Positions 743 to 57,701 of a DNA stretch of 64,000 nt are shown one piece after another. The DNA lies in NCBI GenBank assembly GCA_040905905.1, contig JBBDQN010000030.1, forward strand, positions 15,782-79,781. The letters run 5' to 3'. The first letter of the stretch is position 1; each line of letters starts with the position of its first letter. This DNA comes from Acidimicrobiia bacterium (GTDB taxonomy: Bacteria > Actinomycetota > Acidimicrobiia > Spongiisociales > ZC4RG35). The notes below the pieces were generated by a model. The model made no database searches, was not told where the DNA came from, and was given only the letters and a program-made list of their open reading frames with translations. A program made the position numbers and the translations under genes.

Positions 743-2815
743 TCATTGTGGCAAAGCCAGCAGCCCCCAAACCGCATCGCGGGCGAGTCCATACTCCGGC
801 TCCTGTTCGTAGCCCCCATGACTGTTGTCGACGTCTTCGATCGGGCCCTCGCCGGGGACTTCGTCGATGGAGCCGCCGATCGGATCGGTCCGGCGGTAGA
901 GGTTGCGCCAGCGAAGGCCGTTCGGTCCGTTCAGTTCGGACCGCAGACCGGCGACCCAATCGGGTGTTAGGTGGGCAGGGAACAACCACCCGTACAGCCG
1001 CTGCAGCGGACTTCCATAGGTGAGGAATCCCAGTCGGCTCCGACCGTCGCCGGATAGCTGGCGGACCACCACGGCCGCGAGCACCGAACCCTGACTGTGG
1101 GCCGCGAGGACCAGTTTGCCGCCGTCGGACAACCGTCCCTCCACCTCGGTTCGAAGGTCGACAACCACTTTGGGCCCATACGGTGGTGGGGCGAACGGGT
1201 GATACCAGCGTGGCCACAATCCCGCCAGGTCCCAGATGATGCCGACTGCCCGCCGCTTCGACTCGTTGCGGAGTCCACCGACGATTCGGGTCACGATCAA
1301 AGAGGCAGGCAACAGGATCGCTGCTGCCGCGGCCACCGACGGGAACGTCCCCAGATCGAGGGGGATGCCGAACACACTGGTCCCGGGGACACCAAACCGC
1401 GCAATGACCAAAGTCAATGCCCCGGCGCCGAGTGCCGCGATAGCCAGGCCCCTCTGTTGCATGATCACGAATGCCCCCACAACCAAACCGACTATCAATA
1501 CGAAGACGCCGGTCGCGACATAACCCAGCCAGGGTGTGAACGGAGGCTGATCGATTGAGGGCAGTGCCCGCTCGAACACATCCGGCCATCGGTAGGCGAC
1601 TATCAAGACCACTATCCCGGTCAGAGCCACCACCAAGACGTTGAAGGCCGTCTCCATCGCCGGCACCGTGTCTCGGAGGGCCTGCGTTGGCAGACTTCGC
1701 CGAGCCACCCAGGCAAAACGGATCGTGAGGATCAGGGTGATGAGAAGGAAGGCGAAGAGGCTGGAGGCCGCAAACCATCCAAACCCGTTGGGAAGCGCCC
1801 CTTCGATTTGCAGCCCTCTCTCAACAGCCAGGGCCAAGCCAGCTCCGAGTCCGCCGCCCGCGATGCCGGCGATCACCAACAGGGCGGCGGGTCTTGAGCT
1901 GAATCCGACGAGGAAGGCCAGGAGGACAAGTCCTCCCAGGACGACAACGACGGTGAAGGCTAAGTCGTGCAGGCCGGGCAGATGGCGGGCCGGTCGCAAG
2001 TCGCTGAGAAGAAAACTGGCTACCCCACCAATGAAGGCCAATATCGAGAAGATGGGCAACCAGGCGATGAGCCGGTCCACGATGCCTGACCCCGTCGCGG
2101 TTTGCGCCAGCGCCGTGGCGAGGATGATGAGTGCCAACACCCCAAGGTTCGCCAAACCCGTGTAGGTCCCCGGTAGATGTTGGACTCCTCCGACCGCGGC
2201 GGTTGCAGCGACAGTTCCGATCAAGGTGATGCCGAATGAGACGTGCAGCCTTGCCAACCGATTGGTCGTGGCCGGTTGGCCCCACATCGCTGGGTCGCTT
2301 GGTGAGGTCGGCTCGACCGTGCGATCTTGGGGAACCTCACCCTTGGCCAACAGGGCCGAACGTGAAGGGCTCCAGATCCTGCGGGCGGGGCTCATGCGCT
2401 CCTCGAAGTGGGACCTGCCTGACACCAACGTCAGCACCACGATGATCAGCAGGGAAGCGACCATCAGTCCGGCACCGATCCAACGCGGATCAATCGTGAG
2501 TGTCAGACCTTCCAAGCGATGCCAGGGAAGATCGACGGTCACCGTGACCGCCTCCAACACAAAAATGCCGGTCAACATGAGACATGCCAGCCTGACCACC
2601 GCTACGTACGGCGTCCGCCAGGCCCGGGGGGCAGCCATCCAGCCGGCGGTGTTGGCGAGGGCGAAGGGAAGCAATAACAACCAGAAGGCGGTAGCCGCTG
2701 ACCCCGAGGTCATCCCGCCCCAACGGAACGCCTCCACCGAACCCCTATGGTCGGGGCGAAGAAAGACCCTGGTCCAGCCCTCTGGATCCCGGGGGATCGG
2801 GTCGGTGTCGAGCAT
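743..2815 (-). CDS. Polytopic integral membrane protein (about 14 TM segments) with a C-terminal alpha/beta-hydrolase (lipase-like GHSQGS) domain. The start is uncertain: the ORF extends to 2953, but that would overlap the divergent cupredoxin gene.
   Basis: A 736-aa ORF with many hydrophobic helices, ending in ...KLVLAAHSQGSVLAAVVV...GSP, which is a GxSxG nucleophile elbow. Alternative in-frame ATGs lie at 2815 and 2713. Confidence 0.5.
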   Translation of the reverse strand: MLDTDPIPRDPEGWTRVFLRPDHRGSVEAFRWGGMTSGSAATAFWLLLLPFALANTAGWMAAPRAWRTPYVAVVRLACLMLTGIFVLEAVTVTVDLPWHRLEGLTLTIDPRWIGAGLMVASLLIIVVLTLVSGRSHFEERMSPARRIWSPSRSALLAKGEVPQDRTVEPTSPSDPAMWGQPATTNRLARLHVSFGITLIGTVAATAAVGGVQHLPGTYTGLANLGVLALIILATALAQTATGSGIVDRLIAWLPIFSILAFIGGVASFLLSDLRPARHLPGLHDLAFTVVVVLGGLVLLAFLVGFSSRPAALLVIAGIAGGGLGAGLALAVERGLQIEGALPNGFGWFAASSLFAFLLITLILTIRFAWVARRSLPTQALRDTVPAMETAFNVLVVALTGIVVLIVAYRWPDVFERALPSIDQPPFTPWLGYVATGVFVLIVGLVVGAFVIMQQRGLAIAALGAGALTLVIARFGVPGTSVFGIPLDLGTFPSVAAAAAILLPASLIVTRIVGGLRNESKRRAVGIIWDLAGLWPRWYHPFAPPPYGPKVVVDLRTEVEGRLSDGGKLVLAAHSQGSVLAAVVVRQLSGDGRSRLGFLTYGSPLQRLYGWLFPAHLTPDWVAGLRSELNGPNGLRWRNLYRRTDPIGGSIDEVPGEGPIEDVDNSHGGYEQEPEYGLARDAVWGLLALPQ

Positions 2816-2937
2816 GTCTCTCGGCAGGGTTCCGGAGACCCCGTGGATGCGAAGTTCGGGAATGAGAACCACCGCCGCGGAGGCTACCGGGCCCCACTTT
2901 GCGAATCGCGGCGCGATCAACTTGCCTTCCTGGTCAC

Positions 2938-3279
2938 ATGACGAAACGATCATTCACCCTTCTGGGCGTCCTATTTCTGACCTTGACTGCTTGCGCCGGT
3001 TCCGGCGAAACCGCAACCACCGCCCCTACCGGGCCTGCCGTATACGTGCGCAACCTCGTGTACGAACCGGCCGGCATCACCGTTGAAGTCGACCAGTCCC
3101 TCACCTGGGTCTGGGACGACGACGGCACGGCCCACGACGTGGTGGGAGACGGATTCCGGAGTGAGTTGCAGACCACGGGCACGTTCGTACACACCTTCGA
3201 CGCTGCCGGCGTTTACTCGTACGTGTGCAGCATCCATCCGACCATGATCGGCACTGTCACCGTCGAAGCGGGCGGTTGA
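2938..3279 (+). CDS. Cupredoxin (plastocyanin/amicyanin-like blue copper) lipoprotein.
   Basis: The N-terminus MTKRSFTLLGVLFLTLTACAGS carries a signal peptide and lipobox. The C-terminal type-1 copper motif is YSYVCSIHPTMIGTVTV (Cys-x2-His-x2-Met). Confidence 0.7.
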   Translation: MTKRSFTLLGVLFLTLTACAGSGETATTAPTGPAVYVRNLVYEPAGITVEVDQSLTWVWDDDGTAHDVVGDGFRSELQTTGTFVHTFDAAGVYSYVCSIHPTMIGTVTVEAGG

Positions 3280-5330: not shown

Positions 5331-6002
5331 ATGGATCAACCAACTCCCAATGCCACCGCCCGACGGCTCTTTGCGCCTATCGGGTCAAGCTACGAGCGGT
5401 GGGCATCGCTCCTCAGCCTGGGACAGGATCGGCGCTGGCGACAGGCCATGACCGCCGGCCTCGACCTGCCGTCCGGCTCTCTTGTGCTTGACGTAGCGGC
5501 GGGCACTGGTTCGATCTCGCGGGCCCTGCAACAGTCGGGCCATCAGGTGATCGCCGTTGACCTATCTCGTTCGATGCTGGCTCAACACCCGGGCCCATTC
5601 CGGGCTCTGGCAAGAGGAGAACGGCTTCCTTTTCGTTCCAGACATTTTGATGCAGTTACGTTTGGCTATCTGCTTCGCTACGTCCACGATCCGGTCGTCT
5701 GTCTGCGTGAACTGGGTCGGGTGCTAAAGCCGGGAGGTCTGGTGGGGATGGTTGAATTCGGCCTGCCCGGGGGCTGGTACCTGCCGTGGCGCCTTTACAC
5801 CGGCGGTTTGCTGCCATTGGCGGGACGGCTCATCGATCCCGGCTGGCATGAGGTGGGCAGGTTTCTGAGAGTCTCGATCGAGGACTTCCACCGACGTCAT
5901 CCTGATCTCCAGGCGGTCTTCCGAGAGGCAGGTTTCGTCTATATCCGCGGTAAGCGCCTATCGCTGGGCGGTGGCTTGGTCATGTGGGCCCGGACGCCGT
6001 GA
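5331..6002 (+). CDS. Class I SAM-dependent methyltransferase of the UbiE/MenG (demethylmenaquinone methyltransferase) family.
   Basis: N-terminal LFAPIGSSYERWASLLSLGQDRRWRQ matches the UbiE-family opening. Motif I is LVLDVAAGTGSISRAL. Confidence 0.7.
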   Translation: MDQPTPNATARRLFAPIGSSYERWASLLSLGQDRRWRQAMTAGLDLPSGSLVLDVAAGTGSISRALQQSGHQVIAVDLSRSMLAQHPGPFRALARGERLPFRSRHFDAVTFGYLLRYVHDPVVCLRELGRVLKPGGLVGMVEFGLPGGWYLPWRLYTGGLLPLAGRLIDPGWHEVGRFLRVSIEDFHRRHPDLQAVFREAGFVYIRGKRLSLGGGLVMWARTP

Positions 6003-8162: not shown

Positions 8163-9019
8163 TTTTGGTGCCAACCGGAGGTTCTTTCAGCAAGGACCCG
8201 GGTGACCTCTGCTCCGAAGAGATATGCCTGGGCGAGTCCGGCAACCAGGAAGAGGGCGATGACCGCGCCGCCGGTTAGGGCTCCGGCGGTCAACTCCTCG
8301 CGAGTGCCGATGTACCAGCCGATGCCGAGTCCAGCCACTACGAGCATGGCAGCGGTGATCGTCCCCCCCCAAAAGGCGGCTCGCCACGGAATGGTCCTGA
8401 TGGTGAACCACTGAAACTGAAGAGCGAGGACCACCGCCAATATCGCCAAAGACCCGAACGGGACCAGGAAGATCATCACCCCGGCAAACACGGGGAGGCG
8501 TTCGTCCACGTAGCGACCCGCGGCGGTGACAGCGAGATTGACGCCAACCATCACCAAGACCAAAACGCCTGCGGCTAATACGGCAGCGAGTCCTGAAACT
8601 CTGGTCCAAATGAAGCTCCGCAACCCACCCGGGGGGTCGTCCGGTGAGCGAAAGATGTCGTTCAACGATTGGCGGATTTCGATGAAGAGTCCCGAGCCGG
8701 TCCACAACAGAAGCACCAGGCCGATGATCCCGGTGGCTGTAGCGTTTTCGGCCGTGGCCGTCAGGACATCTTCGAAGACCCTGACCCCAGTTTGTCCCAG
8801 GAAACCGCTCACATTCCCAATCAGCGCGCTGAGTGTCTCCTCACGTCGAAACACGAAGCCCGCGATCGAGGTTGAAATGAGCAGCAAAGGAGCGAGGGCG
8901 AAGAGCGTCCGATAGGCAATGGCAAGGGCCATACGGCCGGCTCTGTCCGCACCAAAGTAGGCGGCTGCTTGTCGGACAACAGCCACCATCCGTGGTAGAT
9001 AAGAACCAGACGTAGTCAT
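8159..9019 (-). CDS. YihY/BrkB (ribonuclease BN-like) family membrane protein.
   Basis: MTTSGSYLPRMVAVVRQAAAYFGADRAGRMALAIAYRTLFALAPLL is the YihY family opening, followed by 6 TM helices. The ORF extension upstream to 9523 is not coding. Confidence 0.65.
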   Translation of the reverse strand: MTTSGSYLPRMVAVVRQAAAYFGADRAGRMALAIAYRTLFALAPLLLISTSIAGFVFRREETLSALIGNVSGFLGQTGVRVFEDVLTATAENATATGIIGLVLLLWTGSGLFIEIRQSLNDIFRSPDDPPGGLRSFIWTRVSGLAAVLAAGVLVLVMVGVNLAVTAAGRYVDERLPVFAGVMIFLVPFGSLAILAVVLALQFQWFTIRTIPWRAAFWGGTITAAMLVVAGLGIGWYIGTREELTAGALTGGAVIALFLVAGLAQAYLFGAEVTRVLAERTSGWHQK

Positions 9020-9097: not shown

Positions 9098-10075
9098 ATG
9101 CCCGCCGTAACCGTCGAAAATACCCTCACCCTTCCCCGGGTGGCTGAACCAACCGCCGATCCGTCGACTGAACGGAAGGTGAAGTCGGTCACAACTGCCC
9201 CGCGAGGCTATGAAGGGGAGGGGTTTCCGGTCCGGCGCGCCTTTGCCGGTGTCGACCTCGGCGACCTCGATCCTTTTGTCCACCTCGACCAGATGGGTGA
9301 GGTCGAGTACGCCCCGGGCGAGCCCAAGGGCACTCCCTGGCATCCGCACCGCGGGTTTGAAACCGTCACCTACATGATCGACGGGGTGATGCAGCATCAG
9401 GACTCCCACGGTGGTGGCGGGATCATCAGCAATGGCGACACCCAATGGATGACGGCCGGGTCGGGGATTCTCCATATCGAGACACCGCCTGAATGGCTGG
9501 TCGTCTCCGGGGGTCTGTTCCACGGTTTCCAGCTGTGGGTCAACCTCCCTGCGGCCGAGAAGTTCTTGCCGCCCCGATACCAGGACCTCCGTGGTGGCGA
9601 TGTCGCGCTACTGACCACACCGGATGGAGGGGCACTGTTGCGGCTCATCGCAGGTGACCTCGATGGCCACGCCGGTCCCGGGTCGACCCACACCCCGATA
9701 ACCCTGATCCATGCCACGATCGCCCCCGGAGCTCAGGTGCGGCTTCCCTGGCGTTCTGACTTCAACGGCCTTGCCTACGTCCTTTCCGGTCGTGGTGAGT
9801 TTGGGAGCGAGAGGCGGGGCGCCGGTGCCGGCCAATTGGTGGTCTATGGCCCGGGAGAGAGCCTCACAGTGGCGGCCGACCCAAACCAGGACAGCCGCAC
9901 TCCCAACCTCGATGTCCTCATCCTTGGAGGAAAACCGATCCGCGAAGAAGTGGCGTGGTACGGGCCCTTCGTGATGAACACCGAAGCCGAAATCCGCCAG
10001 GCGCTGGAGGACTTCCAGCACGGCAAGTTAGGAACCATCCCCGCCGACGGCATCCAGCCGTACCGACCGGCCTGA
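9098..10075 (+). CDS. Pirin family protein (bicupin).
   Basis: The HPHRGFETVTYMIDG cupin metal-binding motif and the typical pirin length. An AAGGA ribosome-binding site precedes the ATG. Confidence 0.85.
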   Translation: MPAVTVENTLTLPRVAEPTADPSTERKVKSVTTAPRGYEGEGFPVRRAFAGVDLGDLDPFVHLDQMGEVEYAPGEPKGTPWHPHRGFETVTYMIDGVMQHQDSHGGGGIISNGDTQWMTAGSGILHIETPPEWLVVSGGLFHGFQLWVNLPAAEKFLPPRYQDLRGGDVALLTTPDGGALLRLIAGDLDGHAGPGSTHTPITLIHATIAPGAQVRLPWRSDFNGLAYVLSGRGEFGSERRGAGAGQLVVYGPGESLTVAADPNQDSRTPNLDVLILGGKPIREEVAWYGPFVMNTEAEIRQALEDFQHGKLGTIPADGIQPYRPA

Positions 10076-10086
10076 TGCAAAACCCC

Positions 10087-10134
10087 GCTTTTATCACCCG
10101 GACCCACCGAAAAACGGTGGGTCCAGGTCGCAAG
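10087..10134. repeat. Palindromic intergenic repeat, copy A (diverged copy).
   Basis: GCTTTTATCACCCGGACCCACCG-AAAAA-CGGTGGGTCCAGGTCGCAAG. The left arm matches the family consensus, and the outer right arm has diverged. Confidence 0.6.
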
Positions 10135-10160
10135 AGTGGGTAGGGCGGTATTCCTGACCT

Positions 10161-11243
10161 CTAACCGCCGTAACGAATAACGATCAACGCGTCGGACGCG
10201 GATTCGGCTCCCCAAACCTCGCCAGGTCTACCCAACAGTTGGCGTACGTTGCCGCCAGGCGAAGGGAGAGGAAAAGACTCAAAGCCTTCAGTGGCGGGGT
10301 CGAACCGAACCACGGCGCCGGCGCCGCTGAAATCGGTCAACCACACCCGGTCGGTTTCGTCCACGTAGACCGAGTAGGCCTGGGGGCCGTCACCGGGAAG
10401 CGGCCACTCCCGCCAGGTGCCGGTGGCTGGGTCGTAGGCGCCGACCTGTCCGGCGTTGAATTCGCTCACCCAGACGATGCCATTGCTGTCCGACCACACC
10501 CGGCGTGACCCCTGCCCGGGCGTCGGCGGATCAATCTGGTCTGCATTGCCAGTCGCCTTGTCGATGCGAGCGATGTGGTTGCCGGCCAGCGAGGCGTAGA
10601 AAACCTCATTGCTGGGAGTGACGGTGATGCCATAAGGGCCGCGTCCCCCCGGTGCGTCAAAGACCTCGGGCACGGGATTGGCGGGGTCCAGTCTGCCGAA
10701 TGCCCCACCCTGGCCCGTGAACCACAGGATCCCATCGTGATCGAAGACCGCTGTGTTGAGGTTGACTGCCCCACCGGGAAGAGGGAAGACCGCTACCGCC
10801 GACGTTGCAGGGTCGACCCGCGCGATGGCATTGAGACCGGTGTCGGTCACCCAAGCGGCGCCGTCGGGTCCGACAATTACGCCATGGGGAGCGGAGCCGC
10901 TGCCGAGGGGGATCTCCTCGACGTGGCCGCTGACGGGATCGAGTCGACCGAGGACGCCGATGTTCTGACCGGTGTACCAGACAGTCCCGTCAGGAGCCGG
11001 CGCCACGTCATGAGGCCCGCTGCCGGCCGGGACCGGGTACTCCTCGATTGCGGTGACCAGCGGAAGCCCGGTAGTAGTGGTTGTTCCGTCGACGGTAGTG
11101 CCCGTGGTGGTCGCCGTCGCCGGGGATGTGGCCGATGATGTGGAAGAGACGGCGTCCGTCGGACCGGGTGCCGTCGTCGCTTCCTCTCCGGCGCGGCACC
11201 CTGCAATCAATAACAACAACACGACCCCGAACCTGCGCGTCAC
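10161..11243 (-). CDS. Lipoprotein with a Vgb-like (streptogramin B lyase family) beta-propeller.
   Basis: A lipobox (LLLIAGCRAG), a Thr-rich linker, then repeated blades of the form GPhGI..GPDG.hW.T. GTG start at 11243. Confidence 0.55.
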   Translation of the reverse strand: MTRRFGVVLLLLIAGCRAGEEATTAPGPTDAVSSTSSATSPATATTTGTTVDGTTTTTGLPLVTAIEEYPVPAGSGPHDVAPAPDGTVWYTGQNIGVLGRLDPVSGHVEEIPLGSGSAPHGVIVGPDGAAWVTDTGLNAIARVDPATSAVAVFPLPGGAVNLNTAVFDHDGILWFTGQGGAFGRLDPANPVPEVFDAPGGRGPYGITVTPSNEVFYASLAGNHIARIDKATGNADQIDPPTPGQGSRRVWSDSNGIVWVSEFNAGQVGAYDPATGTWREWPLPGDGPQAYSVYVDETDRVWLTDFSGAGAVVRFDPATEGFESFPLPSPGGNVRQLLGRPGEVWGAESASDALIVIRYGG

Positions 11244-11266
11244 CCGACAACCCTAGGTCCAACGTC

Positions 11267-11318
11267 GCTTTTATCACCCAGACCCGTCGTATAACGACGG
11301 GTCTGGGTGATAAAACGG
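11267..11318. repeat. Palindromic intergenic repeat, copy B. This copy is a perfect palindrome.
   Basis: GCTTTTATCACCCAGACCCGTCG-TATAA-CGACGGGTCTGGGTGATAAAACGG. It sits in the divergent region between 11243 and 11323. Confidence 0.75.
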
Positions 11319-11322
11319 GGTA

Positions 11323-12123
11323 ATGGCAGTTGATGCGCTCTTTCACCGTGACGGCGAACTCTTCATTCCGACGGAACTCACCAGGGGAGGGTGGTCGGAC
11401 GACTCCCAACATGGGAGCCCACCTTCGGGGCTTTTGGCCCGGGCCATAGAGCAGGTGCCAACGGCGGTTCCGATGCAAGTGGTCCGCTTCACCATCGACC
11501 TCTTTCGGGCGGTGCCGCTGTCGCCATTGACGGTGCAGACCACGGTTCGTCGCGATGGCAAGCGAATCCAGGTGGTCGACGCGTTCCTCTACGCCGGAGA
11601 GCTTGAGGTTGGCAGGGTGTCTTCACTCAAGATCCGCCTGGCGGATCTCGACCTCGATGACCGTGACGAAGCCCCCTGGGTGCAGCCGGGCGATCCGGAA
11701 GCGGCCGAACCTATGGCCTGGGCCGATGTCTTCGGAACCCGATCGGGAACCACGCGTTTCCACTACGACGCGGTCGAGATCCGCACCTTCGACAACAGTT
11801 TCCTGGAAATGGGGCCAGGTGTGTCGTGGTTTCGGTTGCTGTTTCCGGTGGTGGCCGGGGAGGAACCGAGTTCTTTTGTCCGTTTGGCGACTATCGCCGA
11901 CATGTCAAACGGCAATTCCCAGGCCCTTGATCCCCGGCGGTGGATCTACGTGAATCCCGACATCACTCTCTACGCTCACCGTCTCCCGGTGGACGAATGG
12001 ATCGGGATGCGCTCGGCGGCCTTCCAGCACCACACCGGCATCGGGTTAGCGGATACCCGTGTGTTCGATCGACAGGGTCCCCTGGGGCGGATCAATCAGG
12101 CCCAGCTGCTCGATCACCGCTAG
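11323..12123 (+). CDS. Thioesterase-like superfamily protein (possibly a double hot-dog, acyl-CoA thioesterase-like).
   Basis: The length and overall sequence pattern resemble TesB-like thioesterase family proteins. This is a weak assignment. Confidence 0.4.
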   Translation: MAVDALFHRDGELFIPTELTRGGWSDDSQHGSPPSGLLARAIEQVPTAVPMQVVRFTIDLFRAVPLSPLTVQTTVRRDGKRIQVVDAFLYAGELEVGRVSSLKIRLADLDLDDRDEAPWVQPGDPEAAEPMAWADVFGTRSGTTRFHYDAVEIRTFDNSFLEMGPGVSWFRLLFPVVAGEEPSSFVRLATIADMSNGNSQALDPRRWIYVNPDITLYAHRLPVDEWIGMRSAAFQHHTGIGLADTRVFDRQGPLGRINQAQLLDHR

Positions 12124-12685
12124 TCCGGAAGCCTTCTACCTCGACCGTGGTCCGTCGTCGTCGCACCTGGAGGAGGGTTCCTGCAACCACCGCAGCGACG
12201 AGTGCCGGCCATGTCCAAACCGGAATCCCGCTCTGAACGTCGGGAGCAACGGTCATGGGTGGCGAGCCCGGTCCGCCTGCCAGTTTCGCCAGCGCTTCTT
12301 CAAGGTCGAGGGTTAGTTCCTGGGTCAGGGTGCAACTGTTGTCCATATAGGGATCAGACGAAGAGGTTGGAAAGAAGACGTATCTGACACCGTTCAGAAA
12401 GGACCGGTCCAAGGACGAGGTTGTCATAAAGCCACCCCGAGGGAAGGGATCGCCAGTGCCCCATATGCTTGCATCAACAGATACGCCGGAGCCCTTCCAC
12501 ACCGTGTCGACCTCGAGAAGGGCCACCCGATTCGAAGAAGAGGTCGAGACAACCGTGCCGGTGAAGACCAGCGGTGCCGCCGCGAAGCCTTGAGCGAAGC
12601 CGGGCGGATCGGCACAAAGTGCTGTTGCCGGCACTGAAAGGGCGAGAGTCGCCAAGCCGAGGCAGATCGCTGCACCCCATTTCAC
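12092..12685 (-). CDS. Secreted hypothetical protein with a C-terminal TM anchor.
   Basis: GTG start. The signal peptide is MKWGAAICLGLATLALSVPATA. The C-terminal hydrophobic segment is followed by RRRR. Confidence 0.45.
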   Translation of the reverse strand: MKWGAAICLGLATLALSVPATALCADPPGFAQGFAAAPLVFTGTVVSTSSSNRVALLEVDTVWKGSGVSVDASIWGTGDPFPRGGFMTTSSLDRSFLNGVRYVFFPTSSSDPYMDNSCTLTQELTLDLEEALAKLAGGPGSPPMTVAPDVQSGIPVWTWPALVAAVVAGTLLQVRRRRTTVEVEGFRTSGDRAAGPD

Positions 12686-12714
12686 ACCCTCAGCGTAATC
12701 CAGAAGAGTTGACC

Positions 12715-12732
12715 AACGAACGATCGTTCGTT
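12715..12732. promoter_or_regulatory. Perfect 18-bp palindrome AACGAACGATCGTTCGTT, 12 bp upstream of the paaA start. It is a putative PaaR (TetR) operator.
   Basis: The palindrome is read directly from the sequence. It overlaps the paaA ribosome-binding-site region. The core CGAACGATCGTTCG fits the CNAACGNNCGTTNG pattern I recall for PaaR operators. Confidence 0.5.
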
Positions 12733-12743
12733 AACCTCGAAGG

Positions 12744-13673
12744 ATGAACGGAGACGAAAAGTTTCAGGCTTTGCTCGACGCCGAGGACAAGATCGAACCC
12801 ACCGATTGGATGCCCGAGGCCTATCGCCAGACTCTGATCCGCCAGATCGCTCAACACGCCCATTCCGAAGTCATTGGCATGCAGCCCGAAGGCAATTGGA
12901 TCTCGCGCGCTCCCTCTCTGCGCCGCAAGGCGATCCTCATCGCCAAAGTCCAGGACGAAGCCGGCCACGGCCTCTACCTCTACTCGGCTGCCGAGACTCT
13001 CGGCGTCACCCGTGACGAGCTCTACGACCTTCTCCACACGGGCAAGCAAAAGTACTCCTCGATCTTCAACTACCCCACCCTGTCGTGGGCGGACATGGGC
13101 GCGATCGGATGGCTCGTCGATGGTGCCGCTATCACCAATCAGGTGATGTTGAAACGCTGCTCCTATGGCCCCTACGCCCGAGCGATGGTTCGCATCTGTC
13201 TCGAGGAGTCATTCCATCAAAGACAGGGCTACGAGATCTTGATCGCCCTCTGTAATGGGACGACCGAACAGAAGGCGCTTGCCCAAGATGCGCTCAATCG
13301 CTTTTGGTGGCCGTCGTTGATGATGTTCGGGCCCCACGACTCTGAGTCGGCTCACAGCGAGCAGTCGATGAAGTGGAAGATCAAGCGGGTCTCCAACGAT
13401 GACCTCCGCCAGCAGTTCGTCGACATGACCGTGCCCCAGGCCGACTACCTCGGCCTCACCATCCCTGACCCCGAGCTCAAGTGGAACCCCGAGCGCGGTC
13501 ATTACGACTTCGGCCCCATCGACTGGGACGAGTTCTGGGCCGTGGTCAAAGGCAACGGACCCATGAACCGGGAGCGGCTTGCACACAAACGTCTGGCCTG
13601 GGAGGAGGGCGCCTGGGTACGAGAAGCCGCGGTCGCCCACTCTGCCAAGTCATCCACCAAGGAAGTGGCTTGA
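12744..13673 (+). CDS. paaA: 1,2-phenylacetyl-CoA epoxidase subunit A.
   Basis: Ferritin-like di-iron oxygenase sequence with the PaaA signature ([16 protein letters not shown]...EAGHGLYLY). First gene of a five-gene paa operon. Confidence 0.9.
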
Positions 13674-18833: not shown

Positions 18834-19928
18834 GTGTCCGCTGAGATCGCCCGCTTTTTTGACACCCGGGCCGCCTACACGATGTTTGTCAACGCCACCG
18901 ACGAGAAGTCGGTCGTGGCCGATCGGGTGGGTGCCGAACTGGCCAACATCGACGTCTCTCACCCCGGCCTCCGGGTCTTCGATGCCGGCATGGGCGATGG
19001 TGCACTTCTCGCCCATCTCATGCGTCGGATGCATCAGCGGTTCCCCTTCATTCCATGGTTGATCGTGGCCAAGGAGATCAGCATCGAAGACGTCCGTCAG
19101 GCCCTGGCCCGGCTGCCCGACCGTTTCCTTGAACACCCGGAGATGGTCTTTATCGTGACCAATCTTCCGTTTCGCGATGCTCCCGCTCTGGCTGACCCGG
19201 GTCTGGCCTGGCGGCAGGTGGCGCTGAAGGGTTCCACCACTCGTGAATTCACGGATCAGATCGAGAACCTCTACCCGCAACTCGCCATCGATTGGGAAGT
19301 CAGGACAAGCGAGGTGACCGGGAACCCTCTCAATGTTCGCCCGGCGGCGCTGGTGCTCTATCGCCAGGACCGCGGGTTCTTGGTCGACCCCTTGATTCCG
19401 CGGCCAGGGCGGACCGAGCTCAGATATGACCTGGTGGTGGCGTCACAGGCGTATCGGGCCCGTACTCCAGTACAGCGAAAGGTCAAGAGTGTCCTGGTCC
19501 CGCTGGCCCGCAGCCTGGCCCCGGGGGGCCGGCTGGTAGGGGTGCAGGCACGTGGCGACGACCCCGGTCTGGAGATCATCCGCCGGGTTTGGCCCGACGA
19601 GGATCCCTTCCCCCATCGGCGGACTGCGATCCTCGCCGAAGCCCGCCGGCAACTAGCCGGGGAACCGGGCCTGGTCTACCCCGATCTGAGCGACGAGGAG
19701 TCGGTGTTCCGGTTCCGGCTCCACACAATGCCGTCGGTCGAGGCCGAGCACATCGGAACCTCTTCCGTAGTGGCGGCCTGGAACGCTGCCACCTATGTTG
19801 CCCAGATCGACGAGAAACGTCTGGCGGAGGCGACGGCGACCGGTGGCTATCTCGACGCGACCCGGCGCGTAATGGAGCAACACGGACAAATCTGGTGGAA
19901 CGACGAGGCCTATCTAATCACCCGTTAG
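18834..19928 (+). CDS. Hypothetical protein with a possible Rossmann-fold methyltransferase-like N-terminal domain.
   Basis: VFDAGMGDGALL resembles MTase motif I. An acidic residue sits in LIVAKEIS, and VTNLPF resembles a degenerate (D/N)PP(F/Y) motif IV. Weak assignment. Confidence 0.45.
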   Translation: MSAEIARFFDTRAAYTMFVNATDEKSVVADRVGAELANIDVSHPGLRVFDAGMGDGALLAHLMRRMHQRFPFIPWLIVAKEISIEDVRQALARLPDRFLEHPEMVFIVTNLPFRDAPALADPGLAWRQVALKGSTTREFTDQIENLYPQLAIDWEVRTSEVTGNPLNVRPAALVLYRQDRGFLVDPLIPRPGRTELRYDLVVASQAYRARTPVQRKVKSVLVPLARSLAPGGRLVGVQARGDDPGLEIIRRVWPDEDPFPHRRTAILAEARRQLAGEPGLVYPDLSDEESVFRFRLHTMPSVEAEHIGTSSVVAAWNAATYVAQIDEKRLAEATATGGYLDATRRVMEQHGQIWWNDEAYLITR

Positions 19929-19931
19929 CCC

Positions 19932-19981
19932 GCTTTAGCGACCCAGACCCATCGCCAAGCGATGGGTCTGGGTGATAAAAA
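19932..19981. repeat. Palindromic intergenic repeat, copy C. The outer left arm is variant.
   Basis: GCTTTAGCGACCCAGACCCATCG-CCAAG-CGATGGGTCTGGGTGATAAAAAGG. It lies between the stop at 19928 and the gabT start. Confidence 0.7.
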
Positions 19982-20004
19982 GGCAGTATGAGGAGAGAGA
20001 AATT

Positions 20005-32421: not shown

Positions 32422-33471
32422 ATGAAAACACGCCTTTTGGCAGTGATGGCTGTCATTGCCTTTGTACTTGGCGCCTGTGGCGGTGGAGGGGGCGCCGACG
32501 ACGACATCGTTGTCGGGGTCTCCTGGAACAACTACAACGAGGAACGTTGGGCCAAGTCGGACGAACCTGCCATCAAGGCAGCGCTTGAGGCTGGCGGCGC
32601 AAGCTATATCTCATCCGATGCTGGATCTTCGGCCGAGAAGCAGCTGGATGATGTGGAGAATCTGATCGCCCAGGGGGCTGATGTGCTCATCATCCTCGCT
32701 CAGGACGGCACAGCCATCCTTCCAGCGGTCGCCAGCGCCCTCGAGCAGGGTATTCCGGTCATCGCTTATGATCGCCTCATTGAAGATCCGGGGGTCCTCT
32801 ACCTCACCTTCGACAATGTCGGGGTGGGGCGTCTCCAAGCCGAGGTGATCTTCGGTCTGGTGCCCGAGGGCAACTACGCGATCATCAAGGGAAACCAGGC
32901 TGACGCCAACGCCGACTTCCTACGGGCCGGCTACGAAGAAGTAATTGGCGCGGCCGCCGCTGCGGGAACGATCAACATCGCCTGCGAGACCTACACGGAC
33001 AACTGGCTCCCCGATGTTGCTCAGACCAACATGGAGCAATGCCTCACCCAGGAGAACAACGAGATTGACGCCGTTCTCTCGGAGAACGACGGCATGGCCG
33101 GTGGGGTGGTGGCTGCCCTCGAGGCGCAAGGCCTGGCCGGGGTAGTGCCGGTATCCGGACAGGACGGTGACGGGGCGGCCCTCAACCGGGTCGCTCTAGG
33201 CAACCAGTCGGTATCTGTGTGGAAGGACGCTCGGGAGCTTGGCAAGGCGGCCGGTGAGGCTGCAGTTGCGTTGGCCGGGGGAACTGCTCTGGCCAGTGTG
33301 AGCGGGGTCGTGCAATTCGATTCCCCTGGAGGCAACACCCTGAACTCGATCCTGCTGACCCCGATCGCGATTACCCAAGACAACCTGGATGTCGTTATCG
33401 ATGCTGATTGGATCACCGTGGACGCGCTCTGCCAGGGTGTGGCTGCGGGGACGGTGGCGGTTTGCCCCTGA
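32422..33471 (+). CDS. xylF: Sugar (xylose/ribose-type) ABC transporter substrate-binding lipoprotein.
   Basis: [24 protein letters not shown] lipobox, followed by a periplasmic-binding-protein type I fold. Context includes xylH, an ATPase, xylB and xylA. Confidence 0.7.
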
Positions 33472-33498: not shown

Positions 33499-33552
33499 CG
33501 ACGCGCCCCCGGCCCCCCCCGGGGGGCGGGGGGGGGCCCGTCGCGTGGTTTT
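33499..33552 (+). terminator. G/C homopolymer-run palindrome-like hairpin followed by TTTT, between xylF and xylH. It is a possible intra-operon attenuator or terminator.
   Basis: CGACGCGCCCCCGGCCCCCCCCGGGGGGCGGGGGGGGGCCCGTCGCG followed by TGGTTTT. Confidence 0.4.
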
Positions 33553-33569
33553 AGAGAGATGAGACGCTG

Positions 33570-56010: not shown

Positions 56011-57204
56011 GTGCGTCGTCTCAACATTTCCCAAGCACGCCGTATTGCCCTGGCGGCACAAGGCTTTGCTGACCCGCGGCCACAGGGAAAGGTCGACGTT
56101 CGCCACCTGCGCCGAGTTGTTGATCGAATGGGAGTTGTGCAGATCGACTCCGTCAACGTGGTGGCCCGGGCTCACTACCTTCCCTTTTTTGCTCGGCTGG
56201 GGAGCTATCCCACCGAACTACTCGATCGGATGGCCTGGAGCGAGCACAGAGAGTTGATCGAGTATTGGGCCCACATGGCGGCACTGATCCCGATCGAGGA
56301 TTGGCCGCTGTTCCGGCACCGGATGGACAGGGAGCACGTCTGGCGTGATATCGCCAGGCTCCTCGAGAGCAACCCGGAGGGGGTCTCCGAGATCATGGAT
56401 CAGGTCCGCCGGCGCGGTCCCACCCGGCCGTCTGATCTTGACGATCATCACGAAACCGGGAAGGGGCCCTGGTGGGACTGGTCGTTTGCCAAAACCGCAC
56501 TGGAGTGGCTCTTCTACAAGGGTGAGCTGACCGTTCCGAAACGGGCCAATTTCGTTCGGTTCTACGACCTCCCCGAGCGGGTCCTCCCCGACTCGATCCT
56601 GGCCGTCGAACTAAGCGAGGAGGAGCAGCGCCGAGAGCTTGTTCGCAAGGCTCTTCGTCACTGCGGGGTCGGCACATTGAGCGATCTCGCCGATTACTAC
56701 CGCCAATCCAATGCCCCCTGTGTGCCGCTGATCAACGACCTCGTCAAGGCAGGGGAAGCGGTCGAGGTGGAGGTGACCAGTTGGAAAGAGAAGGCTTACC
56801 TCGATCCCGCCGCCGCCGTGCCTCGTCGTGTCGAGGGGGTGGCTTTCCTGGGTCCCTTCGACCCGGTGATCTGGTTTCGGCCGCGGGCCGAGCGGCTATT
56901 CGACTTCCACTATCGGATCGAGATCTACACCCCTGCCCCCAAACGGATCTACGGGTACTACGTGTTCGCCATCCTCCTCGACGGCGAATTGGTGGGCCGG
57001 ATCGATCTCAAAGCCGATCGTCAGGCAGGGATCCTGCGGGTCCGGGGCGCCTACACCGAAGAAGGGGTGGAGCCGACCCGGGTCGCCCCTCCCGTCGTCA
57101 CCGAACTGGAGACGATGGCGACCTGGCTGGGGCTGAACGACGTCTCCGTGGAAAAAAAAGGAAACCTGGCAACTGCGCTTTTATCACCCAGACCCATCGT
57201 TTGA
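56011..57204 (+). CDS. Winged-helix DNA-binding protein of the YcaQ/AlkZ family (putative crosslink-repair DNA glycosylase).
   Basis: A roughly 400-aa protein with the characteristic N-terminal ALAAQGF...VQIDSVNVVARAHYLPFFARLG region. The last 8 codons and the stop lie inside palindromic repeat D. Confidence 0.6.
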   Translation: MRRLNISQARRIALAAQGFADPRPQGKVDVRHLRRVVDRMGVVQIDSVNVVARAHYLPFFARLGSYPTELLDRMAWSEHRELIEYWAHMAALIPIEDWPLFRHRMDREHVWRDIARLLESNPEGVSEIMDQVRRRGPTRPSDLDDHHETGKGPWWDWSFAKTALEWLFYKGELTVPKRANFVRFYDLPERVLPDSILAVELSEEEQRRELVRKALRHCGVGTLSDLADYYRQSNAPCVPLINDLVKAGEAVEVEVTSWKEKAYLDPAAAVPRRVEGVAFLGPFDPVIWFRPRAERLFDFHYRIEIYTPAPKRIYGYYVFAILLDGELVGRIDLKADRQAGILRVRGAYTEEGVEPTRVAPPVVTELETMATWLGLNDVSVEKKGNLATALLSPRPIV

Positions 57205-57229
57205 CGATGGGTCTGGGTGATAAAAACGG
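57177..57229. repeat. Palindromic intergenic repeat, copy D. It overlaps the 3' end of the YcaQ-like CDS.
   Basis: GCGCTTTTATCACCCAGACCCATCG-TTTGA-CGATGGGTCTGGGTGATAAAAACGG. The TGA stop of the upstream gene sits in the 5-nt loop. Confidence 0.75.
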
Positions 57230-57236
57230 TGTTTGG

Positions 57237-57701
57237 TTACCCCGCCAAGGTTTCGTCGGCCAGGGTCTTGCGGAAGGCGGCCAGCTTTGCGGTGAGGTCG
57301 GGGTCGCCGATGGCGAGGATCGCCACAGCCAACAGGGCGGCGTTGGCAGCCCCATCCACGGCCACCGTGGCCACCGGGATGCCTGTGGGCATTTGCACGG
57401 TGGACAACAACGAGTCGAGTCCATCCAGGGAGACCGCCAGCGGTACGCCGATCACCGGTAGCAGCGACTTGGCCGCCATGACTCCAGCCAGATGAGCGGC
57501 TTTGCCAGCCCCGGCGATGATGACAGCGAACCCCCGATCGGCGGCGGCCGTGGCAAAGGCGATTGCCTCGTCGGGGGTCTTGTGGGCGGAGAGCACCCGG
57601 GTTTCATGCTCAACGCCGAAGCGGTCCAGGATCTGTCGGGCCTTCTCCATGACGGGACGATCAGAGCCTGAACCCATCAGAATGGCGACTTTCTTGTTCA
57701 T
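57237..57701 (-). CDS. purE: 5-(carboxyamino)imidazole ribonucleotide mutase.
   Basis: MNKKVAILMGSGSDRPVMEKA...AGKAAHLAGVMAAKSLLPVIGVP. The start overlaps the purD stop as ATGA. Confidence 0.85.
   Translation of the reverse strand: MNKKVAILMGSGSDRPVMEKARQILDRFGVEHETRVLSAHKTPDEAIAFATAAADRGFAVIIAGAGKAAHLAGVMAAKSLLPVIGVPLAVSLDGLDSLLSTVQMPTGIPVATVAVDGAANAALLAVAILAIGDPDLTAKLAAFRKTLADETLAG

What the first reader, a model, noticed from the sequence alone, without database searches (positions are those of the whole stretch)
11267..11318. Dispersed family of roughly 50-bp near-perfect palindromes (4 copies in 64 kb)
Four copies of the same element occur at 10087-10134, 11267-11318, 19932-19981 and 57177-57229. 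Each has 21-23-bp arms, TTTTATCACCCAGACCC(R)TCG and its reverse complement, around a 5-nt loop that differs between copies (AAAAA, TATAA, CCAAG, TTTGA).

All copies sit at gene boundaries in different arrangements: convergent, divergent and co-directional. The AT-rich ends and long GC core do not fit an intrinsic terminator, because the U-tract lies 5' of the stem on either strand. The length and perfect symmetry look more like a REP/BIME or MITE-like mobile palindrome than a transcription-factor site.

I do not recognise this as a described repeat family. Four copies in 64 kb would extrapolate to a few hundred per genome.
Basis: seen in the sequence. Interest (0 to 1): 0.7.

Follow-up and report, generated by a model that had tools for sequence, protein, structure and literature searches.

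The report
Dispersed palindromic gene-boundary repeat family
The four near-perfect palindromes are real copies of an undescribed, lineage-specific family of hairpin-forming repeats at gene boundaries in uncultured Acidimicrobiia, the same general kind as REP, TRIT or Correia repeats, unusual mainly because its arms stay identical between genomes whose silent sites are nearly saturated.

Summary
The window has four copies of one element, each a fixed 47-nt core: a 17-nt arm, RYCG-N5-CGRY, and a 17-nt arm. A weaker palindromic flank (AACCnCGC / GCGnGGTT) extends it to about 65 bp. Half-site matches number 6, against 0.03 expected by chance.

Scans of public collections found the element only in one Acidimicrobiia MAG and in a few metagenome contigs. 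It sits at nine independent gene junctions: 4 convergent, 3 co-directional, 2 divergent.

Orthologous copies keep 34/34 arm bases while third-codon identity of the neighbouring gene is only 0.52-0.60. The apical stem covaries and the loop is free. No decayed copies were found.

At the AlkZ/PurE junction one relative has an empty site. Another has an unrelated perfect palindrome. In the window the AlkZ protein ends inside the element. So copies arise by insertion and are then held under strong constraint.

It is not a canonical terminator, matches no Rfam family and was not found in the literature.

Best reading: a REP/TRIT/Correia-like gene-boundary hairpin. Its outward TGaTAAAA ends lie 6-9 nt before three start codons, the local leaderless-promoter geometry. 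Function and mobilising enzyme remain untested.

The parts
11257..11326 (.). Copy 2, the focal copy: the full palindromic element including its weakly conserved flanks. It fills most of the 79-bp divergent spacer between the Vgb-lyase-like gene (GTG at 11243, minus strand) and the acyl-CoA thioesterase (ATG at 11323, plus strand).
   Evidence: Covariance model R1 scores 72.4 and 70.9 bits on the two strands. Predicted RNA hairpin -48 kcal/mol, z -9.9; DNA hairpin -30.5 kcal/mol, z -10.6.
11269..11285 (.). Copy 2, left 17-nt arm TTTTATCACCCAGACCC.
   Evidence: Zero mismatches. Identical in the orthologous copies of L015, L016 and L018.
11286..11298 (.). Copy 2, variable centre GTCG-TATAA-CGAC. 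The apical 4-bp stem has invariant CG/CG and covarying RY/RY; the 5-nt loop is A/T-rich.
   Evidence: pair 30-42 is AU in 10 and GC in 9 sequences; pair 31-41 is UA in 12, CG in 5 and UG in 3.
11299..11315 (.). Copy 2, right 17-nt arm GGGTCTGGGTGATAAAA. Its outer end TGATAAAAC (11308-11316) resembles an extended -10 element. The TAAAAC hexamer ends 6 nt before the thioesterase ATG at 11323.
   Evidence: for the sequence; for the leaderless-promoter geometry in these genomes. Promoter activity is an inference.
10077..10147 (.). Copy 1 (core 10089-10135), between the convergent Pirin (stop at 10075) and Vgb-lyase-like (stop at 10161) genes. The right arm is the variant form GGGTCCAGGTCGCAAGA. 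The left arm is CCCGGACCC, giving a T.G wobble on the Vgb sense strand.
   Evidence: (65.0 bits).
19922..19992 (.). Copy 3 (core 19934-19980), co-directional context. The stop of an unknown 364-aa gene (19926-19928) lies 5 nt before the left arm. The Shine-Dalgarno sequence GAGGAG (19990-19995) and the GTG (20005) of the class-III aminotransferase follow the right arm. The left arm is the variant TTTAGCGACC.
   Evidence: 63.5 bits.
57167..57237 (.). Copy 4 (core 57179-57225), between the convergent AlkZ-like and PurE-like genes. The AlkZ ORF reads through the left arm, which encodes the tail ...ALLSPRPIV, and stops at the TGA in the loop (57202-57204). The PurE stop is at 57237-57239.
   Evidence: 81.6 bits.
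11250..11255 (-). Not part of the element. TAGGGT, a -10-type hexamer (TANNNT) 6 nt upstream of the Vgb GTG, which predicts a leaderless transcript. It shows that the neighbour on this side has its own promoter outside the core.
   Evidence: The motif is conserved in L012, L015, L016 and L003.

Best explanation
This is a lineage-specific family of extragenic palindromic repeats in an uncultured Acidimicrobiia clade.

Anatomy. The core is 47 nt with fixed geometry and the whole palindrome is about 65 bp. Each strand can fold into a 22-29-bp hairpin.

Origin and maintenance. Copies originate by insertion at gene boundaries. They are then kept almost unchanged for very long times. This implies a trans-acting partner that reads the arm sequence, which could be a protein or a mobilising enzyme. 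That partner is inferred, not identified.

Most likely function. The element marks gene boundaries.
- In transcripts that run into it, the very stable hairpin blocks read-through and/or 3' exonucleases. This fits 7 of the 9 loci, where at least one gene ends within about 25 nt of an arm.
- Its AT-rich outer ends (TGaTAAAAn) face outward and can start short-leader or leaderless transcripts of genes that begin right beside it.

What is shown and what is inferred. Shown: the family, its geometry, its constraint, the covariation, an insertion polymorphism and the positional relations to genes. Inferred: RNA-level action, promoter activity, and the existence and identity of the trans-acting factor.

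On the confidence figure: that this is a REP/TRIT-like dispersed palindromic repeat family is about 0.85 likely. The specific barrier-plus-promoter mechanism is about 0.35-0.4 likely. The figure given is a blend of the two.
For: Family and geometry:
- There are 6 half-site matches against 0.03 expected.
- The arm-to-arm register is 30 nt in every copy, except one copy with a 1-nt deletion.
- The consensus from 48 half-elements extends to AACCnCGC.
- The family is discrete. Real copies score 47 bits or more and the next best hit scores 15 bits.

Narrow distribution:
- Exact-core scans found it in one Acidimicrobiia MAG out of 185,579 species genomes and in 10 metagenome contigs.
- The 9 hits in viral contigs are single half-sites, as expected by chance.

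Constraint:
- Thioesterase third-codon identity is 0.52-0.60 between the window and L015, L016, L018 and L020, yet the adjacent element keeps 34/34 arm bases in L015, L016 and L018.

Hairpin under selection:
- The apical pairs covary, and only 3 of 500 shuffles reach the observed covariation score.
- Compensatory changes occur between orthologues: GCCG/CGGC against ATCG/CGAT, and CCCAGA/TCTGGG against CCTGGA/TCCAGG.
- Predicted stability is -48 kcal/mol, z -9.9.

Insertion:
- At the AlkZ/PurE junction, L025 is empty, with a 15-nt spacer.
- L028 carries an unrelated perfect 50-bp palindrome at the same place.
- In the window and in L026 the AlkZ C-terminus is replaced by element-encoded tails...ALLSPRPIV and ...DRLFIT.

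Boundary position:
- Stop codons lie from 26 nt inside to 25 nt outside an arm.
- Contexts across nine orthology groups are 4 convergent, 3 co-directional and 2 divergent.

Promoter clue:
- TANNNT ending at -7 or -8 from the start codon marks leaderless genes here, in 15 of 123 gene starts.
- The thioesterase homologue that lacks the element has TACGCT-N7-ATG.
- In element-bearing genomes TGATAAAAn occupies that position before the thioesterase, Nfu_N and FAD-oxidase starts, with 6-9 nt between the hexamer and the start codon.
Against: - No transcript data exist, so termination, RNA stabilisation and promoter activity are all untested.
- The hairpin lacks a U-tract. Only 2 of about 9 convergent junctions in the window carry it (junction counts from the author's own rough gene caller, which missed some genes), so it is not a general requirement.
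- The -10-like hexamer TAAAAn never ends in T, the second most conserved -10 base.
- Intact arms are equally conserved at convergent junctions, where no promoter is needed. Promoter function therefore cannot explain arm conservation.
- G.T versus A.C mismatches show no clear bias toward the sense strand, 8 against 5.
- Loops flip orientation between orthologues (GTAAAAC against GTTTTAC). This points to DNA-level processes and away from loop-specific RNA recognition.
- The side carrying the variant arm does not correlate cleanly with gene orientation: 3 cases fit and 2 do not.
- No mobilising enzyme was found.
Confidence: 0.55

Rival explanations
1. A purely selfish, non-autonomous mobile element of the REPIN or MITE type. 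It is copied by a single-copy transposase elsewhere in the genome (a RAYT-like HUH enzyme or another kind) that recognises the hairpin arms. Arm identity is kept by that recognition and by gene conversion between copies. Any effect on transcription is incidental.
For: - Dispersed, near-identical copies.
- The centre is variable in sequence but self-complementary, as in REPIN spacers.
- The AlkZ/PurE junction is filled, empty or differently filled in different genomes, and the element overwrites a CDS end.
- The same variant arm (TTTYGCGACC) recurs at five orthology groups, some shown for a single genome only, which suggests copying between loci.
- Elements sit at synteny breakpoints: Vgb followed by Pirin or by PPDK, and ADH/EamA inserted between the element and Vgb.
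- Short-read contigs tend to end near copies.
Against: - Copies persist at the same orthologous sites, with 34/34 identical arms, across lineages whose silent sites are close to saturation.
- The consensus is the same in all lineages, with no lineage-specific drift.
- There is no tail of decayed copies.
- Two conserved sites lie in divergent promoter regions 7-10 nt from start codons, where a neutral parasite should be harmful.
- No transposase was seen in the window ORFs scanned or in the gene calls of the related loci that have them.
Confidence: 0.22
2. A double-stranded DNA site for an abundant dimeric or tetrameric DNA-binding protein, such as a nucleoid-associated protein, an insulator, a transcriptional roadblock or a global regulator. 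The protein would read the two 17-bp arms, which are held 30 bp apart.
For: - Strict spacing and strict arm sequence.
- Orientation independence, including flipped loops.
- Two invariant CG dinucleotides flank an A/T-rich centre.
- AT-rich ends in a 63% GC genome.
- Presence in two conserved divergent promoter regions.
Against: - A duplex-binding dimer gives no reason for the uncontacted apical positions to stay complementary, yet they covary.
- About 34 near-invariant bases per site at every locus is far more than known operator sets show (general knowledge).
- Insertion into a CDS end and the filled/empty polymorphism fit copy-and-paste origin better than site-by-site evolution.
Confidence: 0.12
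3. Site-specific recombination sites that bound gene cassettes, in the manner of integron attC or plasmid pdif modules. The two arm types (ATCA and GCGA) would be binding sites for two recombinase subunits.
For: - Single genes are flanked by two copies: Vgb in the window, and a DUF559 nuclease gene in L007 with the variant arms facing inward and the centres matching 11/13 in direct orientation.
- Gene content next to copies differs between genomes.
Against: - There are no cassette arrays and no integrase or Xer-like gene nearby.
- Most copies are symmetric A/A palindromes with a palindromic centre, which gives no polarity.
- Most flanking genes are conserved housekeeping or catabolic genes in stable synteny.
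Confidence: 0.06
4. An ordinary bidirectional intrinsic (Rho-independent) terminator that happens to share sequence between loci.
For: - A stable GC-rich hairpin lies next to stop codons at 7 of 9 loci.
- On the Vgb sense strand a short T-run (GGGGTTTTG) follows the extended stem.
Against: - The polarity is T-tract 5' and A-tract 3' on both strands.
- There is no U-tract at most copies, and the terminator scan does not flag them.
- Structure alone would not keep 34 bases identical.
- Two loci are divergent promoter regions.
Confidence: 0.03

Closest known systems
TRIT, the 'tuberculosis Rho-independent terminator' motif of Mycobacterium (Gardner et al. 2011, PMC3152330)
   Same: - An actinobacterial lineage poor in canonical terminators.
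- A dispersed family (147 copies in M. tuberculosis) conserved in both sequence and structure.
- Palindromic, and therefore bidirectional.
- A narrow position relative to stop codons, often overlapping the CDS end.
- Restricted to one clade.
- The authors likewise proposed a factor that reads the double-stranded stem.
   Different: - The sequence and the taxon differ: Acidimicrobiia rather than Mycobacterium.
- Here two conserved loci are divergent promoter regions with start codons 7-10 nt away.
- The arms are invariant across lineages with nearly saturated silent sites.
- The TRIT model is not in Rfam, so direct comparison was not possible.
- TRIT function is itself unproven: Term-seq found little overlap with real 3' ends.
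REP/BIME elements and REPIN-RAYT systems of Proteobacteria (Bertels & Rainey 2011, PMC3337134)
   Same: - Short extragenic palindromic repeats.
- Conserved ends around a centre that varies in sequence but keeps hairpin potential.
- Vertical persistence.
- Preference for gene ends.
   Different: - The arms contain no internal imperfect REP palindrome and no conserved GTAG-type tetranucleotide.
- The element is one long hairpin of fixed 47-nt geometry, not a doublet with variable spacing.
- No RAYT was found (not testable genome-wide here).
- No singlets or decayed remnants were seen.
Correia (NEMIS/CREE) elements of Neisseria.
   Same: - A small palindromic insertion element at gene boundaries.
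- It folds in mRNA and can act as a terminator or RNase III site.
- It carries outward-facing promoter elements at its ends.
   Different: - Correia elements are 100-155 bp, with 26-bp terminal repeats, a TA target duplication and an IHF site.
- Here the element is 47-65 bp, no clear target duplication was found, and the promoter role is only inferred from geometry.

Membership tests
REP / REPIN-RAYT | Each repeat unit is a short imperfect palindrome with conserved flanking bases (for example a 5' GTAG). | tested here: not met
   The 17-nt arm TTTTATCACCCAGACCC has no internal palindrome. GTAG occurs in the flank of only one orthologous site (window 10089 / L009 3012).
REP / REPIN-RAYT | Two units in inverted orientation form a hairpin whose spacer varies in sequence but stays self-complementary. 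| tested here: met
   Conserved arms surround a covarying RYCG/CGRY stem and a free loop. However, the spacing is fixed at 13 nt, unlike REPINs.
REP / REPIN-RAYT | A cognate single-copy RAYT (HUH/Y1 transposase) gene flanked by copies. | not testable with these tools
   None was seen in the window ORFs scanned or in the gene calls of the related loci that have them.
REP / REPIN-RAYT | Tens to hundreds of extragenic copies per genome. | tested here: inconclusive
   There are 4 copies in 64 kb and 9 independent loci in the related DNA held, all extragenic or overlapping a CDS end. The genome-wide count is extrapolated only.
Intrinsic (Rho-independent) terminator | A GC-rich hairpin immediately followed by a U-tract on the transcribed strand. 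| tested here: not met
   The stem is followed by ATAAAA and GCGnGG on both strands. The copies are not among the 9 terminator-like sites found, and 13.3 such sites are expected by chance.
MITE (IS-derived, e.g. Correia-like) | Terminal inverted repeats, a target-site duplication, and a related autonomous IS with the same ends. | tested here: inconclusive
   The arms could serve as terminal repeats. The flanks are themselves palindromic, with YA often at -9/-8, so no direct duplication can be read. No element with the same ends around a transposase was seen. The filled/empty comparison is too diverged to define the ends exactly.
TRIT (Mycobacterium) | A match to the TRIT sequence/structure model. 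| not tested
   The model is not in Rfam 15, and cmscan gave no family hit. TRIT is reported only from Mycobacterium.
TRIT (Mycobacterium) | A conserved palindromic hairpin family positioned tightly at gene termini. | tested here: met
   Stops lie from -26 to +25 nt relative to an arm at 7 of 9 loci.
Integron attC | An imperfect palindrome with R/L core sites and extrahelical bases, arranged in cassette arrays next to intI. | tested here: not met
   The palindromes are perfect or near-perfect, copies are 1-37 kb apart among housekeeping genes, and no integrase is nearby.
DNA uptake sequence (DUS/USS) | A short motif, very frequent, found singly on both strands including inside genes. | tested here: not met
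   No solitary half-site at up to 2 mismatches occurs in any locus. Arms occur only as in-register pairs.

The most novel reading that the evidence does not exclude
The element is a host 'punctuation' module rather than a parasite. It would be a compact two-way cassette, read by a dedicated sequence-specific factor. Its hairpin would stop or process transcripts arriving from either side. Its outward TGnTAAAA ends would launch leaderless or short-leader transcripts. The recurrent TCGCGAAA arm would be the 'promoter-off' allele.

A more speculative variant: the DUF559 (PD-(D/E)xK) nuclease gene, which in L007 is flanked by two copies with variant arms facing inward, is the cognate enzyme. That would be a non-HUH counterpart of RAYT.
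Probability: 0.15. Interest if true: 0.75.

Novelty: new member of a known kind. Interest (0 to 1): 0.45.

Why it matters
Dispersed palindromic repeats are well studied in Proteobacteria (REP/REPIN, Correia elements), but outside them the one actinobacterial case considered here, TRIT in mycobacteria, is still unexplained.

This family offers a clean second actinobacterial case with unusually sharp signals:
- fixed geometry;
- arms that do not change between genomes whose silent sites are nearly saturated;
- covarying apical pairs;
- an insertion that rewrites a protein C-terminus;
- conserved copies placed exactly where a leaderless promoter should be.

If its trans-acting partner were found, that could show how high-GC bacteria lacking classical terminators mark gene ends. 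It could also reveal a new mobilising enzyme.

There are practical consequences too. The repeat breaks short-read assemblies of these MAGs, and it misleads gene callers, which extend ORFs through it.

Tried and rejected
1. G.T versus A.C mismatch polarity, as a test for folding of the sense-strand RNA. The result was 8 consistent against 5 inconsistent, which is not informative. The Vgb 3' copy alone looks polar, with three G.T wobbles in L020.

2. Whether the variant arm (TTTYGCGACC) always faces a gene 3' end, as an outward-promoter model predicts, or the opposite, as an inward-promoter model predicts. The outward model scored 3 fits and 2 misfits. The inward model scored 2 fits and 4 misfits. 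Neither is convincing.

3. A -35 element inside the element for the putative outward promoters. No consistent hexamer or spacing was found. The -10 elements of Vgb (TAGGGT) and ADH (TAATTT) lie at different distances from the arm.

4. A PaaR/TetR operator. The true paa operator-like palindrome AACGAACGATCGTTCGTT sits at the paaA promoter. The repeat also occurs at non-paa loci.

5. A Shine-Dalgarno role for GGGUGAU or for the GGGGG run. The spacing to the start codon is wrong (15 nt and 2 nt).

6. A resemblance of GGGTCTG...GATAAAA...GTTAG to Tn3-family inverted repeats. This is from memory only, and the orientation is inverted (the GGG ends face inward). Dropped.

7. Rfam at gathering and at permissive thresholds gave only generic miRNA-type hairpin matches far below threshold.

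8. Literature searches for the sequence, for Acidimicrobiia with REP, and for REPIN/RAYT with Actinobacteria found nothing relevant.

9. Phage, plasmid and viral-contig searches gave nothing beyond chance.

10. An exact look-up of the window's thioesterase in the contig index found no record, so the source genome of the window was not identified.

Full report
**1. Observation**

The four sites contain the claimed sequence. The half-site TTTTATCACCCAGACCC matches 6 times at up to 3 mismatches, against 0.03 expected from shuffles. The full inverted pattern matches 4 times against 0.00 expected.

An inverted-repeat scan of the whole window ranks copies 4, 2 and 1 as the 1st, 2nd and 4th strongest pairs (rank 3 is an unrelated 71%-complementary pair). 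Copy 3 ranks 10th, with 15-nt perfect arms.

- Copies 2 and 4 are near-perfect: 22-nt arms at 100% and 30-nt arms at 90%.
- Copy 1 has a divergent right arm and copy 3 a divergent left arm.

The flanking genes differ at every copy, so these are not segmental duplicates. The window is about 63% GC, chromosomal in character, and carries paa, pur and other housekeeping genes.

**2. Anatomy**

I collected all copies from the window and from related DNA and laid them in register.

- Geometry is fixed: a 17-nt arm, a 13-nt centre and a 17-nt arm.
- The centre is always RYCG-N5-CGRY, with invariant CG/CG and an A/T-rich loop.
- The only exception is a 1-nt shorter centre in L026.
- Treating each half as one observation (48 halves from 24 non-redundant copies) gives the consensus cc.CcAACC.CGC-TTTTATCACCCAGACCC-gTCG. 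The palindrome therefore really spans about 65 bp.
- The focal copy is predicted to fold at -48 kcal/mol as RNA (z -9.9) and -30.5 kcal/mol as DNA (z -10.6).

On a 24-sequence alignment the two apical pairs covary: AU in 10 against GC in 9, and UA in 12 against CG in 5 and UG in 3. Only 3 of 500 shuffles reach the observed covariation score. Many of these sequences are orthologues, so the counts are not independent events.

Compensatory changes are nevertheless visible between orthologues.

- GCCG/CGGC in L004 against ATCG/CGAT in L010.
- CCCAGA/TCTGGG against CCTGGA/TCCAGG at the Vgb 3' site.
- A symmetric C-G to A-T change in L005/L020.

A covariance model built from the alignment (R1) finds every copy at 47 bits or more. 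Nothing else scores above 15 bits, even with filters off on the window. The family is discrete and has no decayed remnants. Half-sites never occur alone.

One arm can take a recurrent alternative form, TTTYGCGACC instead of TTTTATCACC. This occurs at five orthology groups, always on one arm only. At three of them the variant is seen in a single genome while the orthologous copies are symmetric (window against L006, L013 against L007).

**3. Distribution**

An exact-core scan of one genome per species (185,579 species) hit only a single MAG, 'Acidimicrobiia bacterium OF_bin.28', four times. The metagenome scan found ten contigs.

Proteins beside the copies have their best homologues in proteins that their sources label Acidimicrobiia. 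Fetching syntenic loci through those homologues added copies in several further lineages, including 0.5-1.5 Mb long-read contigs.

More distant relatives lack the element: L023, L024, L025, L028, L029 and L039.

Nine hits in viral contigs are single half-sites, the number expected by chance. Plasmid and phage collections have nothing. No Rfam family reaches its threshold, and no paper holds the sequence.

**4. Context**

Grouping copies by orthology gives nine independent junctions.

- A: thioesterase-paa operon against Vgb, or against ADH/EamA. Divergent.
- B: unknown gene followed by aminotransferase. Co-directional.
- C: Vgb 3' end against Pirin or PPDK. Convergent.
- D: AlkZ-like against PurE. 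Convergent.
- E: Nfu_N against hydantoinase A. Divergent.
- F and G: either side of a DUF559 gene in L007. Co-directional.
- H and I: in OF_bin.28 and metagenome contigs. Convergent.

Intergenic space is almost entirely the element. Stops lie from 26 nt inside to 25 nt outside an arm, and starts lie 7-25 nt from an arm.

In the window about 2 of 9 convergent, 1 of 8 divergent and 1 of 40 co-directional junctions carry a copy. These counts come from my own gene caller, which is rough and missed some genes.

**5. Constraint**

Between the window and L015, L016, L018 and L020, the thioesterase is 93-95% identical in protein but only 0.52-0.60 identical at third codon positions. The element 7-9 nt upstream keeps 34/34 arm bases in L015, L016 and L018. 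In L020 it differs by one symmetric pair.

At a neutral identity of about 0.6 per site, 34/34 would have a probability near 3e-8 (my arithmetic). The consensus is the same in all lineages. This is purifying selection, or homogenisation tied to a conserved reader of the sequence. It is not recent spread.

**6. Origin by insertion**

The AlkZ/PurE junction shows three states.

- In L025 (AlkZ 80% identical) the two stop codons are 15 nt apart and only a small imperfect palindrome is present.
- In L028 (77% identical) an unrelated perfect 50-bp palindrome fills the junction: GTTTTGGCGCGTAAAGGTGACGCCA|TGGCGTCACCTTTACGCGCCAAAAC. It again has the T-tract 5' and the A-tract 3', and AlkZ reads through it.
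- In the window, L013, L026 and L027 the family element is there.

The ancestral AlkZ C-terminus (...ALAKA...ALARVS) is replaced by element-encoded tails. These are ...ALLSPRPIV, with the stop in the loop, or ...DRLFIT, with a TAG created in the arm alongside a compensating change in the other arm. The PurE C-terminus is unchanged.

So hairpins turn over at this junction, and the family element arrived by insertion.

Elements also coincide with synteny breakpoints. Loops are found in both orientations between orthologues (GTAAAAC against GTTTTAC). I attribute this to DNA-level flipping between the arms; that is an inference.

**7. What it does**

It is not a canonical terminator. The polarity is T-tract, stem, A-tract on both strands. 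Terminator-like sites in the region are no more frequent than chance, and the copies are not among them.

A hairpin-barrier role fits the 7 of 9 loci that have an adjacent gene end, and it fits the hairpin turnover at junction D. It is untested, and most convergent junctions lack any hairpin.

For the genes that start beside a copy there is no room for a promoter outside it. The spacers are thioesterase acgggggta-ATG, Nfu_N agggggtt-GTG and FAD-oxidase gcgcagttgg-ATG.

Leaderless promoters are evidently used in these genomes.

- TANNNT ends exactly 7 or 8 nt before the start codon in 15 of 123 genes. Examples are Vgb and paaA (TTGACC-N17-TAACCT-N6-ATG).
- The thioesterase homologue that lacks the element has TACGCT-N7-ATG.
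- In element-bearing genomes that position is occupied by the arm end TGaTAAAAn. This matches 6 of the 8 specified positions of the extended -10 consensus TGnTATAAT but never has the final T.

I therefore infer, without proof, that intact arm ends can act as outward promoters. This cannot explain why arms are equally conserved at convergent junctions, so some other reader of the arm sequence must exist.

Strand-polarity tests and variant-arm orientation tests gave no clear answer.

**8. Comparison with known systems**

The closest described thing is TRIT in Mycobacterium. It has 147 conserved palindromic hairpins hugging stop codons, is clade-restricted, and its function is still open.

REPINs share the pattern of conserved ends around a variable but hairpin-forming centre, and they share vertical persistence. 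However, the defining REP unit is not present here, and a RAYT could not be looked for genome-wide.

Correia elements, known to me from memory only, share the combination of hairpin, terminator or RNase III substrate, and outward promoters.

I file this as a new member of the known kind 'dispersed extragenic palindromic repeats'. I do not file it as a member of any named family.

**9. Verdict**

The feature is real, undescribed and well delimited, and its kind is known. Interest is moderate. The strongest points are the depth of conservation and the promoter-position coincidence. The weakest points are the absence of any transcript data and of a trans-acting partner.

Noticed in passing
window 12708-12746: The paaA gene appears leaderless with a canonical promoter: TTGACC, a 17-nt spacer, TAACCT, then 6 nt and ATG. 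The spacer is a perfect palindrome, AACGAACGATCGTTCGTT, which is probably the operator of the TetR-family (PaaR-like) regulator encoded in the cluster. The arrangement is conserved in L012, L018, L020 and L005.
   Followed up: partly
window plus L005, L007, L012, L013, L015, L018, L020, L026 (123 gene starts): There is a sharp peak of TANNNT ending 7 nt (11 genes) or 8 nt (4 genes) before the start codon. Leaderless mRNAs therefore seem common in this clade. Shine-Dalgarno-like motifs peak 5-9 nt upstream in the other genes.
   Followed up: partly
L028 1948-1997; also 5482-5528 and 8503-8549: A related MAG (GCA_035281425.1) lacks the family. It has a different perfect 50-bp palindrome at the same AlkZ/PurE junction, and other unique perfect palindromes, including one between a solute-binding-protein gene and a permease gene. 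Long intergenic palindromes may be a general habit of this clade.
   Followed up: partly
L007 1984-3119 (also L014 10465 onward): A DUF559 / MTES_1575 REase-like gene (2090-3058, minus strand) is flanked by two copies. Their variant arms (TCGCGAAA) face the gene, and their 13-nt centres (ACCGTAAAACGGT and ATCGGAAAACGGT) match 11/13 in direct orientation. The layout resembles a cassette, or a cognate-enzyme arrangement.
   Followed up: partly
window 33500-33555: A G/C-only hairpin, CGCCCCCGGCCCCCCCC/GGGGGGCGGGGGGGG, is followed by TGGTTTTAG. It lies downstream of the gene ending at 33471. It is the one classical terminator-like structure noticed in the window.
   Followed up: no
window 12124-12743: A 620-bp stretch holding an ORF with no Pfam match (12092-12685, minus strand) lies between the thioesterase and paaA. 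In L015 and L016 these genes are about 40-50 bp apart. L020 also has an extra unannotated gene at this position.
   Followed up: no
L003 2230-2260: In MAG OF_bin.28 the thioesterase start codon position reads CTG instead of ATG. An in-frame GTG lies inside the element arm (GTG ATA AAA ACG GGG GTA CTG...).
   Followed up: no
L001-L004, L006, L010, L013 (contig coordinates): In short-read assemblies the copies tend to lie within about 50-350 bp of contig ends. The repeat probably breaks assemblies, so copy numbers in MAGs are underestimates. Gene callers also extend ORFs through the element, for example the thioesterase called as 300 and 611 aa in L018 and L020.
   Followed up: no
L039 9910-9962: The thioesterase homologue in a genome without the family has an unrelated hairpin just upstream of its leaderless promoter. 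The hairpin has 16-nt perfect arms and a 21-nt loop.
   Followed up: no
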